64,000 nucleotides of DNA from assembly GCF_009914755.1 (NCBI RefSeq), contig NC_060936.1; one strand, given 5' to 3'. Below are positions 14,574 through 42,500 of this stretch, one piece after another. Both the position numbers and the translations under genes were made by a program. The notes below the pieces were generated by a model. That model saw nothing but the letters and a program-made list of their open reading frames with translations. It searched no databases and had not been told where the DNA came from. This DNA comes from the human T2T-CHM13v2.0 reference genome, Homo sapiens. Positions within the stretch are counted from its first letter, which is position 1; each line of letters begins with the position of its first letter.

Positions 14574-17500
14574 AAATATACATTCTTCTCAGCACCACAC
14601 TGCACTTACTCCAAAATTGACCACATAGTTGGAAGTAAAGCACTCCTCAGCAAATGCAAAAGAACAGAAATAACAACAAACTGTCTCTCAGACCACAGTG
14701 CAATCAAACTAGAACTCAGGATTAAGAAACTCATTCAAAACCGGTCAACTGCATGGAAACTGAACAACCTGCTCCTGAATGAATACTGGGTAATGAAATG
14801 AAGGCACAAATAAAGATGTTCTTTGAAACCAGCGAGAACAAAGGCACAACATTCCAGAATCTCTGGGACACATTTAAAGCATTGTGTAGAGGGATATTTA
14901 TAGCACTAAATGCCCACAAGAGAAAGCAGGGAAGATCTAAAATTGACACCCTAACATCACAATTAAAAGAACTAGAGAAGCAAGAGCAAACACATTCAAA
15001 AGCTAGCAGAAGGCAAGAAATAACTAAGATCAGAGCAAAACTGAAGGAGATAGAAACACAAAAAACCCTTCAAAAAATCAATGCATCCAGGAGCTTGTTT
15101 TTTGAAAAGATCAACAAAATTAATAGACCACTAGCAAGACTAATAAAGAAGAAAAGAGAGAATAATCAAATAGATGCAATAAAAAATGATAAAGGGGATA
15201 CCACCACCGATCCCACAGAAATACAAACTACCATCAGAGGATACTATAAACACCTCTATGCAAATAAACTAGAAAATCTAGAAGAAATGGATAAATTCCT
15301 GGACACATACACCCTCACAAGACTAAACCAGGAAGAAGTTGAATCTCTGAGTAGACCAATAACAGGCTCTGAAATTGAGGCAATAATAATTAATAGCTTA
15401 CCAACCAAAAGAAGTCCAGGACCAGACAGATTCACAGTCGAATTCTACCAGAGGTACAAGGAGGAGCTGGTACCATTCCTTCTGAAACTATCCAAATCAA
15501 TAGAAAAAGGGAATCCTGCCTAACTCATTTTATGAGGCCAGCATCATCCTCATACCAAAGCCTGGCAGAGACACAACAAAAAAAGGAATTTTAGACCAAT
15601 ATCCCTGATGAACATGGATGCAAAAGTCCTCAATAAAATACTGGCAAACAGAATCCAGCAGCACATCAAAAAGCTTATCCACCATGATCAAGTGGGCTCG
15701 AACCCTGGGATGCAAGGCTGGTTCAACATATGCAAATCAATAAACGTAATCCAGCATATAAACAGATCCAAAGACAAAACCACATGATTATCTTGATAGA
15801 TGCAGAAAAGGCCTTTGACAAAATTCAACAACCCTTCATGCTAAAAACTCTCAATAAATTAGGTATTGATGGGACATATCTCAAAATAAGAGCTATTTAT
15901 GACAAACCCACAGCCAATATCATACGGAATGGGCAAAAACTGGAAGCATTCCATTTGAAAACTGGCACAAGACAGGGATGCCCTCTCTCACCACTTCTAT
16001 TGAACATAGTGTTGGAAGTTCTGGCCGGGGCAATCAGGCAGGAGAAAGAAAGGGTATTCAATCAGGAAAAGAGGAAGTCAAATTATCCCTGTTTGCAGAT
16101 GACATGATTGTATATCTAAAAAACCGCATCGTCTTAGCCCCAAATCTCCTTAAGCTGATAAGCAACTTCAGCAAAGTCTCAGGATACAAAATCAATGTGC
16201 AAAAATCACAAGCACTCTTATACACCAATAACAGACAAACAGAGAGCCAAATCATGAGTGAACTCCCATTCACAATTGCTTCAAAGAGAATAAAATACCT
16301 AGGAATCCAACTTACAAGGGATGTGAAGGACCTCTTCAAGGAGAACTACAAACCACTGCTCAACGAAATAAAAGGATACAAACAAATGGAACAACATTCC
16401 ATGCTCATGGATAGGAATAATCAATATCGTGAAAATGGCCATACTGCCCAAGGTAATTTATAGATTCAATGCCATCTCCATCAAGCTATCAATGACTTTC
16501 TTCACAGAATTGGAAGGAACTACTTTAAAGTTCATATGGAACCAAAAAAGAGCCCGCATTGCCAAGTCAATCCTAAGCCAAAAGAGCAAAGCTGGAGGCA
16601 TCACACTACCTGACTTCAAGCTATACTCCAAGGCTGCAATAACCAAAACAGCATGGTACTGTTACCAAAACAGACATATAGACCAATGGAACAGAACGGA
16701 GCCCTCAGAAATAATGCCGCATATCTACAACCATCTGATCTTTGACAAACCTGACAAAGACAAGAAATGGGGAAAGGATTCCCAGTTTAACAAGTGGTGC
16801 TGGGAAAACTGGCTAGCCATATGTAGAAAGCTGAAACTGGATCCCTTCCTTACACCTTATACAAAAATTAATTCAAGGTGGATTAAAGACTTAAATGTTA
16901 GACCTAAAACCATAAAAACCCTAGAAGAAAACCTAGGCAATACCATTCAGGACATAGGCATGGGCAAGGACTTCATATTTAAAACACCAAAAGCAATGGC
17001 AACAAAAGCCAAAATTGACAGATGGGATCTAATTAAACTAAAGAGCTTCTGCACAGCAAAAGAAACTACCATCAGAGTGAACAGGCAACCTACAGAATGG
17101 GAGGAAATTTTTGCAATCTATTCATCTGACAAAGGGCTCATATCCAGAATCTACAAAGAACTTCAACAAATTTACAAGAGAAAATCAAACAACCCCATCA
17201 AAAAGTGGGCAAAGTATATGAAGAGACAGTTCTCAAAATAAGGCATTTATGCAGCCAACAGACGCATGAAAAAATGCTCATCATCACTGGCCATTAGAGA
17301 AATGCCAATCAAAACCACAATGAGATACCATCTCACACCATTTAGAATGACATTCATTAAAATATCGGGAAACAACAGGTGCTGGAGAGGATGTGGAGAA
17401 ATAGGAACACTTTTACACTGTTGGTGGGACTGTAAATTAGTTCAACCATCGTGGAAGACAGTGTGGCGATTCCTCGAGGATCTAGAACTAGAAATAGCAT

Positions 17501-18044
17501 TTGACCCAGCCATCCCATTACTGGGTATATACCTAAAGGATTGTAAATCATGCTGCTATAAAGACACATGCACATGTATGTTTTTGGTGGCACTATTCAC
17601 AATAGCAAAGACTTGGAACCAACCCAAATGTCCATCAATGATAGACACGATTAAGAAAATGTGACACATGTACACCATGGAATACTATGCAGCCATAAAA
17701 AAGGAAGAGTTCATGTCCTTTGTAGGGACATGGATGAAGCTGGTAACCATCATTCTGAGCAAACTATCACAAGGACAGAAAACCAAACACCTGCATGTTC
17801 TCACTCATAGGTAGGAATTGAACAATGAGAACATTTGGACACATGATGGGGATCATCACACACTGGGGCCTGTTGTGGGGTAGGGGGAAGGGGGAAGGAT
17901 AGCATTAGGAGATATACCTAATGTAAATGACGAGTTAATGGGTGCAGCACACCAACATGGCACATGTATACATATGTAACAAACCTGCACGTTGTGCACC
18001 TGTACCCTAGAACTTAAAGTATAATAAAAATATATAAAAAAAAT
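14574..18044 (+). mobile_element. 5'-truncated L1PA4/5 (3.47 kb), frameshifted ORF2
   Basis: ORF2 fragments including [13 protein letters not shown]1PA 3'UTR and A-tail; 15-bp TSD aaatgaaactgttct at 14559-14573 and 18045-18059 with a TT/AAA endonuclease site. Confidence 0.97.
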
Positions 18045-39553: not shown

Positions 39554-42500
39554 GTCATCAGCAAACAGGGACAATTTGATTTCCTCTTTTCCTAATTGAA
39601 TACCCTTTATTTCCTTCTCCTGTCTAATTGCCCTGGCCAGAACTTCCAACACTATGTTGAACAGGAGTGGTGAGAGAGGGCATCCATGTCTTGTGCCAGT
39701 TTTCAAAGGGAATGCTTCCAGTTTTTGCCCATTCAGTATGATATTGGCTGTGGGTTTGTCATAGATAGCTCTTATTATTTTGAGATACGTCCCATCAATA
39801 CCTAATTTATTGAGAGTTTTTAGCATGAAGGGTTGTTGAATTTTGTCGAAGGCCTTTACTGCATCTATTGACATAATCATGTGGTTTTTGTCTTTGGTTC
39901 TGTTTATATGCTGGATTACATTTATTGCTTTGCGTATATTGAAGCAGCCTTGCATCCCAGGGATGAAGCCCACTTGATCATGGTGGATAAGCTTTTTGAT
40001 GTGCTGCTGGATTCAGTTTGCCAGTATTTTATTGAGGATTTTTGCATCAATGTTCATCAAGGATATTGGTCTAAAATTCTCTTTTTTGGTTGTGTCTCTG
40101 CCTGGCTTTGGTATCAGGACGATGCTGGCCTCATAAAATGAGTTAGGGAGGATTCCCTCTTTTCTATTGATTGGAATAGTTTCAGAAGGAATGGTACCAG
40201 TTCCTCCTTGTACCTCTGGTAGAATTCGGCTGTGAATCCATCTGGTCCTGGACTCTTTTTGGTTGGTAAGCTATTGATTATTGCCACAATTTCAGAGCCT
40301 GTTATTGGTCTATTCAGAGATTCAACTTCTTCCTGGTTTAGTCTTGGGAGGGTGTATGTGTCGAGGAATTTATCCATTTCTTTTAGATTTTCTAGTTTAT
40401 TTGCATATAGTTGTTTGTAGTATTCTCTGATGGTAGTTTGTATTTCTGTGGGATTGGTGGTGATATCCCCTTTATCATTTTTTATTGCGTCTATTTCATT
40501 CTTCTCTCTTTTCTTCTTTATTAGTCTTGCTAGCGGTCTATCAATTCTGTTGATCCTTTCAAAAAACCAGCTCATGATTGTATATCTAGAAAACCCCATT
40601 GTCTCAGCCCAAAGTCTCCTTAAGCTGATAAGCAACTTCAGCAAAGTCTCAGGATACAAAATCAATGTACAAAAATCACAAGCATTCTTATACACCAATA
40701 ACAGACAAACAGAGAGCCAAATCATGAGTGAACTCCCATTCACAATTTCTTCAAAGAGAATAAAGTACCTAGGAATCCAACTTACAAGGGATGTGAAGGA
40801 CCTCTTCAAGGAGAACTACAAACCACTGCTCAATGAAATAAAAGAGGATACAAACAAATGGAACAACATTCCATGCTCATGGGTAGGAAGAATCAATATC
40901 GTGAAAATGGCCATACTGCCCAAGGTAATTTATAGATTCAATGCCATCCCCATCAAGCTACCAATGACTTTCTTCACAGAATTGGAAAAAACTACTTTAA
41001 AGTTCATATGGAACCAAAAAAGAGCCCGCATTGCCAAGTCAATCCTAAGCCAAAAGAACAAAGCTGGAGGCATCATGCTACCTGACTTCAAACTATACTA
41101 CAAGGCTACAATAACCAAAACAGCATGGTACTGGTACCAAAACAGAGATATAGATCAATGGAACAGAACAGAGCCCTCAGAAATAACGCTGCATATCTAC
41201 AACTATCTGATCTTTGACAAACCTGAGAAAAACAAGCAATGGGGAAAGGATTCCCTATTTAATAAATGGTGCTGGGAAAACTGGCTAGCCATATGTAGAA
41301 AGCTGAAACTGGATCCCTTCCTTACACCTTATACAAAAATTAATTCAAGGTGGATTAAAGACTTAAACGTTAGACCTAAAACCATAAAAACCCTAGAAGA
41401 AAACCTAGGCAATACCATTCAGGACATAGGCATGGGCAAGGACTTCATATTTAAAACACCAAAAGCAATGGCAACAAAAGCCAAAATTGACAGATGGGAT
41501 CTAATTAAACTAAAGAGCTTCTGCACAGCAAAAGAAACTACCATCAGAATGAACAGGCAACCTATAAAATGGGAGAAAATTTTCGCAACCTACTCATCTG
41601 ACAAAGGGCTAATATCCAGAATCTACAATGAACTCCAACAAATTTACAAGAAAAAAAACAAACAACCCCATCAAAAAGTGGGCGAAGGACATGAACAGTC
41701 ACTTCTCAAAAGAAGACATTTATGCAGCCAAAAAACACATGAAAAAATGCTCACCATCACTGGCCATCAGAGAAATGCAAATCAAAACCACAATGAGATA
41801 CCACCTCACACCAGTTAGAATGGCGATCATTAAAAAGTCAGGAAGCAACAGGTGCTGGAGAGGATGTGGAGAAATAGGAACACTTTTACACTGTTGGTGG
41901 GACTGTAAACTAGTTCAACCATTGTGGAAGTGAGTGTGGCGATTCCTCAGGGATCTAGAACTAGAAATACCATTTGGCCCAGCAATCCCATTACTGGGTA
42001 TATACCCAAAGGACTACAAATCATACTGCTATAAAGACACATGCACACGTATGTTTATTGCAGCACTATTCACAGTAGCAAAGACTTGGAACCAACCCAA
42101 ATGTCCAACAATGATAGACTGGAATAAGAAAATGTGGCACATATACACCATGGAATACTATGCAGCCATAAAAAATGATGAGTTCATGTCCTTTGTAGGG
42201 ACATGGATGAAATTGGAAATCATCATTCTCAGTAAACTATCACAAGGACAAAAAACCAAACACCACATGTTCTCACTCATAGGTGGGAATTGAACAATGA
42301 GAACACATGGACACAGGAAGAGGAACATCACACTCTGGGGACTGTTGTGGGGTGGGGGAAGGGGGGAGGGATAGCATTAGGAGATATACCTAATGCTAAA
42401 TGATGAGTTAATGGGTACAGCACACCAGCATGGCACATGTATACATATGTAACTAACCTGCACATTGTGCACATGTACCCTAAAACTTAAAGTGTAAAAA

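What the first reader, a model, noticed from the sequence alone, without database searches (positions are those of the whole stretch)
16795..41548. Apparent ectopic gene conversion between two L1 copies 24.5 kb apart
Seen: 16795-17076 (in the L1PA4/5 copy) and 41267-41548 (in the younger L1PA3-like copy) match at 281/282 positions; the single difference (16896 T / 41368 C) is a CpG decay. Just outside the tract the copies differ repeatedly. Inside it they share four non-consensus changes: 16878/41350 G, 16977/41449 A, 16979/41451 T and 17021/41493 G, giving DFIFKT...KIDRW instead of the usual DFMSKT...KIDKW. The L1PA copy at 58009 has the consensus base at all four sites, and the copy at 37765 lacks the variants at the three sites it covers. 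Inference: non-allelic gene conversion between direct repeats that flank the CCDC91 exon, probably older copy to younger. A crossover between the same pair would delete or duplicate ~24.5 kb including the in-frame exon.
Basis: partly seen in the sequence, partly recalled or inferred. Interest (0 to 1): 0.8.

Follow-up and report, generated by a model that had tools for sequence, protein, structure and literature searches.

The report
Gene conversion between two L1 copies
Two old L1 retrotransposon copies 24.5 kb apart in a CCDC91 intron have exchanged a patch of at most 282 bases by non-allelic gene conversion, which is a real but ordinary kind of event.

Summary
Window 16795-17076 and 41267-41548 match at 281 of 282 bases. 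The two L1 copies differ at 8.5% of sites elsewhere.

None of 200,000 permutations gave so long a run. All 255 unrelated old-by-young L1 pairs have at least 6 differences in this stretch.

The four shared variants are not a sub-lineage haplotype:
- 0 of 36 young-like and at most 1 of about 25 old-like copies carry any one of them.
- The 20-mer holding two of them occurs three times in the genome, and the third place lacks the other two.

Non-allelic gene conversion is therefore well supported, and it is a known process.

- Site 16896 separates the two subfamilies (T in 24 of 24 old-like, C in 29 of 36 young-like copies). Each copy carries its own lineage's base there.
- "CpG decay" and "older to younger" cannot both be right.

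The direction is unresolved, with a slight lean to younger into older. Three further shared rare variants lie within about 400 bp of the tract and hint at patchy or repeated exchange. The deletion or duplication risk is hypothetical.

The parts
14575..18052 (+). Copy A: older, 5'-truncated L1 (3' 3.5 kb), flanked by a 16-bp target-site duplication at 14558-14573 and 18044-18059
   Evidence: Self-BLAST. TSD found. Best genome-wide relatives of its 3' flank are only 92-93% identical. 40 of 734 flank sites depart from the majority of its own group.
16795..17076 (+). Maximal conversion tract in copy A (282 bp). The minimal span marked by shared variants is 16878-17021 (144 bp).
39554..40573 (-). 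Copy B, inverted 5' segment (a twin-priming-like structure). It encodes part of the L1 ORF2 reverse transcriptase.
   Evidence: Aligns to A 15091-16103 on the minus strand. Pfam RVT_1, E = 1.4e-23, for 39554-40012 minus strand.
40573..42517 (+). Copy B, direct 3' segment: a younger L1 in the same orientation as copy A
   Evidence: 92.8% identical to A 16103-18048 over 1951 bp. Best genome-wide relatives of its 3' flank are 96-97% identical. 11 of 734 flank sites are non-majority.
41267..41548 (+). Maximal conversion tract in copy B
16878..16878 (+). Shared rare variant G (B: 41350). Other copies have A.
   Evidence: A in 36 of 36 young-like and 23 of 24 old-like copies
16896..16896 (+). The only difference in the tract: T in A, C in B (41368). 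This site separates the two lineages, and each copy has its own lineage's base.
   Evidence: T in 24 of 24 old-like copies. Among 36 young-like copies: C 29, T 6, gap 1.
16940..16940 (+). Lineage-separating site where both copies carry the old-like base A (B: 41412)
   Evidence: A in 23 of 25 old-like copies. Among 38 young-like copies: T 34, A 3, G 1.
16977..16979 (+). Shared rare variants 16977 A and 16979 T (B: 41449, 41451), which change Met-Ser to Ile-Phe in the decayed ORF2 frame
   Evidence: G and C in 36 of 36 young-like copies, and in 24 of 25 and 23 of 25 old-like copies. The exact 20-mer occurs at 3 places in the genome.
17021..17021 (+). Shared rare variant G (B: 41493), Lys to Arg
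   Evidence: A in 36 of 36 young-like and 26 of 27 old-like copies
16392..17164 (+). Span that holds all seven shared rare variants, including three isolated ones outside the tract (16392 C, 16639 A, 17164 C). Each isolated one is hemmed in by nearby A-B differences.
   Evidence: No shared rare site was found in the other roughly 2,200 aligned bases of 15091-18055.
22461..22574 (+). CCDC91 coding exon (114 nt, in frame) lying between the two copies
   Evidence: Hub annotation. AG and GT at its borders were read.
58004..61494 (-). Copy C: another old L1, used as comparison. It has the common base at all four sites.
37767..38874 (-). Copy D: an older L1 3' fragment, used as comparison for three of the sites

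Best explanation
A germ-line DNA break in one of the two L1 copies was repaired using the other copy, 24.5 kb away in the same orientation, as template. The outcome was non-allelic (ectopic, interlocus) gene conversion without crossover.

Mechanism.
- A patch of 144 to 282 bp of decayed ORF2 sequence was copied, most simply by synthesis-dependent strand annealing.
- The donor's private mutations (16878 G, 16977 A, 16979 T, 17021 G) thereby came to sit in both copies, and the recipient's private mutations were erased.
- The exchange happened in the stretch where the two L1 lineages were already most alike, which is where strand invasion is easiest.

Timing. It is late in the life of the younger copy: within the last 29-69% of its residence, as a 95% bound.

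Direction. This is not settled by this genome.
- I lean about 60:40 to younger copy into older copy as one continuous tract, followed by C-to-T decay of the CpG at 16896 in the older copy.
- The alternative is older into younger, with 16896 left unconverted (a discontinuous tract).
- Three isolated shared rare variants within about 400 bp of the tract suggest additional short patches or repeated exchange.

Shown: the mosaic identity, its significance, and the uniqueness of the shared haplotype. Inferred: the break, the repair pathway, the direction and the timing.
For: 1. Identity. 281 of 282 bases match, against 141 differences in the other 1664 aligned sites. 0 of 200,000 permutations reach this run.

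2. Empirical null. In 255 unrelated old-like by young-like pairs, the longest run with at most 1 difference is 214. Every pair has at least 6 differences in the tract. They share on average 0.26 rare variants per 1031 bp, with a maximum of 2. A and B share 7.

3. The four variants are private to this pair.
- A whole-genome BLAST of the tract puts A and B first, and the next hit has 5 differences (40 of 1997 candidates scored). None of the 28 other loci read has more than 2 of the 4 variants.
- The exact 20-mer with 16977 A and 16979 T occurs at 3 places, and the third has A at both 16878 and 17021.
- In a 76-base BLAST, A and B are 100% identical and the other 38 scored hits are all 97%.

4. 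No crossover. Flanks on both sides keep each copy's own lineage markers and private changes. Copy A keeps its target-site duplication.

5. Homology. In 139 of 255 unrelated pairs, the longest identical run lies mostly inside 16795-17076.

6. Specificity. Other L1 pairs in the window share only 1-2 rare variants (A-C 2, B-C 1, B-D 2, C-D 1). A-D shares 5 of 1125 sites, scattered, and has no long run.

7. Tract length fits published non-crossover tracts: a mean of 55-290 bp and a range of about 100-1000 bp (passages of PMC4404656).
Against: - No orthologous or second human sequence could be compared, so non-reciprocal change of one copy is inferred rather than seen.
- Raw reads could not be inspected.
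- The genome searches score only 40 best candidates per call, so a rare third carrier with extra mutations could be missed.
- This stretch is intrinsically less divergent between the lineages (4.85% inside against 7.3% outside in unrelated pairs). Part of the identity therefore needs no conversion.
- Against a single simple tract: site 16896 keeps each lineage's own base. Three shared rare variants also lie outside the tract, among many unconverted differences.
- Neither direction fits cleanly. Older as donor needs an unusually clean stretch of A (P = 0.018). Younger as donor needs B to have natively carried A at 16940, as 3 of 38 young-like copies do.
Confidence: 0.88

Rival explanations
1. 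One reading: conversion from the older copy (A) into the younger (B), with the difference at 16896 a later CpG decay.
For: Both copies carry the old-like base at 16940: A in 23 of 25 old-like copies, T in 34 of 38 young-like copies.
Against: With A as donor the tract would have carried T at 16896, as 24 of 24 old-like copies do. B's C then cannot be explained by decay. It needs a discontinuous tract or a T-to-C change.

Copy A would also have only 4 private changes where 10.7 are expected (P(<=4) = 0.018).

A likelihood sketch gives this direction 0.22-0.44.
Confidence: 0.35
2. Sub-lineage haplotype: both copies descend from source elements that carried the four variants, and no exchange took place.
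For: Each variant taken singly recurs in some L1 copies. Examples are 16878 G in 10 and 16977 A in 10 of the 28 loci most similar to the tract.
Against: - None of those 28 loci has more than 2 of the 4 variants.
- 0 of 36 young-like copies has any of them, and at most 1 of about 25 old-like copies has any single one.
- The 20-mer occurs at only 3 places.
- The two copies belong to different lineages outside the tract.
Confidence: 0.02
3. Chimeric insertion: the patch arose by template switching of the reverse transcriptase when copy B was inserted.
For: Copy B is already rearranged (an inverted 5' segment). Copy A lies in the sense orientation in a transcribed intron.
Against: A tract as old as B's insertion should by now show 6.9-10.4 differences between the copies. 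One is seen, giving P(<=1) of 0.008 to 0.0004. It would also need two switches.
Confidence: 0.03
4. Assembly or polishing artefact that copied 282 bases between the two L1s.
For: Nothing was found here in its favour. It could not be tested, because no reads or second assembly were available.
Against: The copies differ by about 8% on both sides of the tract and sit in unique flanks 24.5 kb apart. Long accurate reads should place them correctly. This is an inference from how such assemblies are made, not a test.
Confidence: 0.03
5. Chance: a conserved stretch of ORF2 plus parallel mutations.
For: The stretch is the least divergent part between the lineages. One unrelated pair reaches a perfect run of 183 bases.
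Against: 0 of 255 unrelated pairs shares more than 2 rare variants, and none has fewer than 6 differences in the tract. The permutation test gives 0 of 200,000.
Confidence: 0.01

Closest known systems
Non-allelic gene conversion between Alu elements (Kass 1995, Roy 2000, Aleshin and Zhi 2010, as described in passages of PMC6598467)
   Same: Dispersed retrotransposon copies exchange short patches. The result is a mosaic of subfamily markers. The rate is higher for nearby and more similar copies.
   Different: Here the partners are L1 ORF2 remnants 24.5 kb apart, beyond the <10 kb range where that review reports elevated Alu rates. They were only about 92% identical overall.
Repair of a chromosomal break in a LINE by gene conversion from endogenous LINEs in mouse cells (Tremblay, Jasin and Chartrand 2000). 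I saw this only as cited in a passage and the reference list of PMC1920257; the paper itself is not held.
   Same: An L1 copy serves as repair template for another L1 copy, and the tracts are short.
   Different: That was an induced break in cultured cells. This is a fixed germ-line event inferred from sequence.
Intra-chromosomal gene conversion inside a rearranged human L1 locus (NCLI34, in a passage of PMC1920257)
   Same: A human L1 carries a segment whose best match is another L1 on the same chromosome.
   Different: That case was a 377-bp highly diverged inserted segment in a non-classical insertion. This is a clean replacement inside homologous sequence.
Allelic non-crossover gene conversion in human meiosis (PMC4404656, passages)
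   Same: The tract length is similar (about 100-1000 bp). Discontinuous or clustered tracts occur, and GC-biased patchy repair has been proposed.
   Different: That exchange is between alleles, not paralogues. No hotspot evidence was found here: the only PRDM9-like 13-mer lies at 42354, about 800 bp from the tract.
Transposon-mediated rearrangements by recombination between L1 or Alu copies (PMC9675761, passages and supplements)
   Same: The same substrate, direct L1 repeats, could give a deletion or duplication by crossover.
   Different: No crossover product is seen here, and the paper's supplements contain no CCDC91 entry.

Membership tests
Non-allelic (interlocus) gene conversion between dispersed repeats | Two paralogous sequences at distinct loci | tested here: met
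   Copies at 14575-18052 and 39554-42517 have separate flanks. Copy A has its own target-site duplication.
Non-allelic (interlocus) gene conversion between dispersed repeats | A bounded tract of near-identity inside otherwise diverged copies, beyond chance | tested here: met
   281 of 282 bases match, against 8.5% divergence outside. 0 of 200,000 permutations reach this. The maximum run in 255 unrelated pairs is 214.
Non-allelic (interlocus) gene conversion between dispersed repeats | Shared derived variants inside the tract that are absent from the rest of the family | tested here: met
   Four variants, found together in no other copy
Non-allelic (interlocus) gene conversion between dispersed repeats | Flanking markers unexchanged (no crossover) | tested here: met
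   Each copy keeps its own lineage's bases and private changes on both sides. The intervening 24.5 kb, with the exon, is present.
Non-allelic (interlocus) gene conversion between dispersed repeats | Non-reciprocal change of one copy relative to its ancestral state | not testable with these tools
   No ape orthologues or other human haplotypes are held. The genome has no relatives in the tool.
L1 (LINE-1) retrotransposon copies | ORF2 reverse transcriptase and family-wide homology | tested here: met
   RVT_1, E = 1.4e-23, in copy B's inverted segment. There are thousands of genomic candidates for the tract and its flanks: 1997, 14804 and 8071.
   No repeat library is available. Only relative age is shown: 92-93% against 96-97% to the best relatives.
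Sub-lineage haplotype | The variants co-occur in other copies | tested here: not met
Chimeric insertion by template switching | The patch is as old as the insertion | tested here: not met
   6.9-10.4 differences are expected and 1 is seen, giving P <= 0.008.

The most novel reading that the evidence does not exclude
The exchange is recent enough to be specific to humans or still polymorphic, and it is not a single event. On this reading, the seven shared rare variants spread over 773 bp record repeated or patchy exchange between these two intronic L1s. The pair would then be an active recombination substrate. It now carries perfect identity blocks of 101 and 180 bp. Crossover products, a 24,472-bp deletion or duplication of an in-frame CCDC91 exon, would exist at low frequency in people.
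Probability: 0.1. Interest if true: 0.4.

Novelty: new member of a known kind. Interest (0 to 1): 0.2.

Why it matters
It is a clean, well-bounded example of L1-to-L1 ectopic gene conversion in a complete human genome, with three modest consequences.

1. Such patches blur subfamily markers and age estimates of individual L1 copies.
2. The case shows that conversion can act between copies that are about 92% identical and 24.5 kb apart, in the stretch where the lineages are most alike.
3. The event raised the longest perfect identity between two direct repeats flanking a coding exon to 180 bp. That is around the length that a passage of PMC9675761 gives as needed for homologous recombination in mammals (>100 bp).

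It does not open a new question.

Tried and rejected
- Pfam on the open frame that holds the tract in copy B (40421-41815, 465 aa) and on two other frames gave 0 families. Only the inverted segment gave RVT_1. A first try failed because of stop codons.
- PRDM9-like 13-mer (motif recalled from memory): none in copy A and one in copy B at 42354, too far and too weak to use.
- No target-site duplication was found for copy B; only 7-mers matched, which is likely chance.
- CCDC91 in the supplements of PMC9675761: 0 occurrences. The tool says file 5, a PDF of pictures, was not searched.
- Papers PMC85044 and PMC379164 are not held. The work of Myers 2002 and Vincent 2003 on L1 conversion is recalled only. 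I saw both in the reference list of PMC554112.
- The review of Alu conversion, PMC8230782, has no passage on L1.
- Sliding the donor question onto the three isolated shared variants gave nothing decisive. 17164 C also occurs in 2 of 20 young-like and 1 of 29 old-like copies.
- I did not run a mismatch-tolerant pattern scan for the haplotype.

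
Full report
**Anatomy**

A self-comparison of the window shows four L1 fragments that cover the region of interest.
- Copy A lies at 14575-18052 on the plus strand.
- Copy B consists of a direct 3' segment at 40573-42517 (plus strand, 92.8% identical to A 16103-18048 over 1951 bp). 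It also has an inverted 5' segment at 39554-40573, which matches A 15091-16103 on the minus strand. The two segments meet at the same L1 position, as in twin priming.
- Copy C lies at 58004-61494 (minus strand) and copy D at 37767-38874 (minus strand, 88% identical).

Copy A is flanked by a 16-bp target-site duplication. The inverted segment of B encodes part of a reverse transcriptase (Pfam RVT_1, E = 1.4e-23). The CCDC91 exon 22461-22574 (114 nt, with AG and GT at its borders) lies between A and B. The tract-bearing parts of A and B are direct repeats 24,472 bp apart.

**The observation**

Window 16795-17076 and 41267-41548 differ only at 16896/41368 (T/C). In the alignment, the copies differ at 16784, 16785, 16791 and 16794 and again at 17077, 17093 and 17095. 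Copy C has the other base at all four sites, and copy D at the three sites it covers. The translation reads DFIFKT and KIDRW. All of this is confirmed.

**Is it more than chance?**
- A and B differ at 142 of 1946 aligned sites, and 141 of these lie in the 1664 sites outside the tract (8.5%).
- At that rate 23.9 differences are expected in 282 bp, so P(<=1) = 1e-9.
- None of 200,000 random placements of the differences gave a run of 282 with at most one difference; the maximum was 259.

Uniform placement is too kind a null, so I also built an empirical one.
- With the window's own genome, I collected 29 copies most similar to A's 3' flank (17077-18050; 92-93% identical).
- I collected 39 copies most similar to B's 3' flank (41549-42520; 96-97%).
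- Both sets were chosen only on sequence outside the tract.

Results for the 255 pairs of one old-like and one young-like copy that cover 16300-17330 in full:
- The stretch is indeed less divergent than its surroundings, 4.85% against 7.3%.
- The longest identical run of a pair lies mostly inside it in 139 of 255 pairs.
- Every pair still has at least 6 differences there.
- The longest run with at most one difference is 214.

**The shared variants**

In the unbiased sets:
- The young-like copies have A at 16878, G at 16977, C at 16979 and A at 17021 in 36 of 36.
- The old-like copies have those bases in 23 of 24, 24 of 25, 23 of 25 and 26 of 27.

Genome-wide searches:
- A BLAST of the tract (1997 candidates, 40 scored) puts A and B first. 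The next hit has 5 differences.
- None of the 28 other loci I read has more than two of the four variants.
- The exact 20-mer that holds 16977 A and 16979 T occurs at three places in 3.1 Gb. The third, on another chromosome, has A at 16878 and A at 17021.
- A 76-base query over three of the variants gives 100% identity for A and B, and 97% for all 38 other scored hits out of 786 candidates.

Unrelated old-by-young pairs share on average 0.26 rare variants per 1031 bp, and never more than 2. A and B share 7.

**What it is**

The pattern is the signature of non-allelic gene conversion without crossover:
- a bounded mosaic patch;
- private mutations of one copy now present in both;
- private mutations of the other copy erased;
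- flanks that keep each copy's own lineage markers.

The likely mechanism, which is inferred, runs as follows. A break occurs in one copy. The broken end invades the paralogue in the stretch of best pre-existing identity. Short synthesis follows, and then annealing back. The tract length, 144 to 282 bp, matches published non-crossover tracts (passages of PMC4404656).

**Timing**
- If the patch dated from B's insertion, 6.9-10.4 differences would have accumulated between the copies.
- One is seen, so P(<=1) is 0.008 to 0.0004. This argues against a chimeric insertion.
- The event falls within the last 29-69% of B's residence time (95% bounds, depending on the rate and on whether 16896 counts as a later change).

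**Direction**

Only two sites in the tract separate the lineages.
- At 16940, both copies carry the old-like base: A in 23 of 25 old-like copies and T in 34 of 38 young-like copies. This suggests older into younger.
- At 16896, each copy carries its own lineage's base: T in 24 of 24 old-like copies and C in 29 of 36 young-like copies.
- With A as donor, B's C at 16896 is therefore an unconverted marker inside the tract, not a decay product.
B must then have carried A at 16940 natively, as 3 of 38 young-like copies do.

The load of private changes points the other way.
- A departs from its own group's majority at 40 of 734 flank sites. After calibrating for the lower variability of the tract, that predicts 10.7 changes in the tract. 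Only 4 are there (P(<=4) = 0.018).
- B departs at 11 of 734 flank sites, which predicts 3.4 changes. The 4 or 5 seen are typical; young-like copies show 2 to 9.

A rough likelihood sketch gives older-to-younger a probability of 0.22-0.44. I treat the direction as open, with a slight lean to younger into older.

**Unexplained remainder**

Three further rare variants are shared by A and B outside the tract: 16392 C, 16639 A and 17164 C.
- Each is enclosed by unconverted differences within 14 to 38 bp.
- No such site occurs in the other roughly 2,200 aligned bases.
- No unrelated pair reaches three.

They may be separate micro-patches, patchy repair, or partly chance. 17164 C recurs in 3 of 49 unbiased copies. 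Discontinuous tracts and GC-biased patchy repair have been described for allelic events in humans (PMC4404656).

**Comparison with what is known**
- Gene conversion among dispersed retrotransposons is established, mainly for Alu (passages of PMC6598467).
- Breaks in LINEs are repaired from other LINEs in mouse cells (Tremblay 2000, seen only as cited in PMC1920257).
- An intra-chromosomal conversion inside a human L1 locus is described in the same paper.
- My four literature searches aimed at L1 or transposon gene conversion turned up no genome-wide survey of L1-to-L1 conversion in humans. That is no proof that none exists.

This is a new instance of a known process.

**The crossover risk**

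The crossover risk to the CCDC91 exon is hypothetical. The supplements of one large study of transposon-mediated rearrangements hold no CCDC91 entry.

**Not done**
- No ape orthologues, other human haplotypes or raw reads were available.
- Subfamily names were not tested.

Noticed in passing
window 39554-42517: Copy B has the structure of a twin-priming insertion. An inverted 5' segment and a direct 3' segment meet at window 40573, at the same L1 position with no gap. The reverse-transcriptase domain is split across the junction. I found no target-site duplication.
   Followed up: partly
window 14558-14573 and 18044-18059: Copy A has an intact 16-bp target-site duplication (TAAATGAAACTGTTCT).
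   Followed up: yes
L084 and L099 (G000 C12:86567902-86568312 and C3:112177044-112177454): These two young-like L1 copies carry the old-like bases at both lineage-separating sites of the tract (16896 T, 16940 A), yet they are young-like in the flanks. They may belong to an intermediate sub-lineage or be further conversion mosaics. L077 has the same C and A combination as copy B.
   Followed up: no
window 17077 (B: 41549) and copy D 37767-38874: Copy B's private A at the first base after the tract is shared with the adjacent older fragment D, which lies 680 bp upstream of B in inverted orientation. B and D share 2 rare variants in 1125 bp, which is within the range seen for unrelated pairs.
   Followed up: partly
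window 17121, 17295, 17437, 17497, 17896: Copies A and D share five bases that are rare among the comparison copies. The sites are scattered and there is no long identical run. Some changes I counted as private to A may therefore be states of an older lineage, or recurrent mutations.
   Followed up: no
L031 (G000 C2:154082895-154085914): This is the only other genomic place with the 20-mer. It is a rearranged L1 in which pieces of the tract region lie in different orientations and positions.
   Followed up: partly
window 42354: A single match to the degenerate PRDM9-type 13-mer (motif recalled from memory) lies on the minus strand of copy B, about 800 bp downstream of the tract.
   Followed up: no
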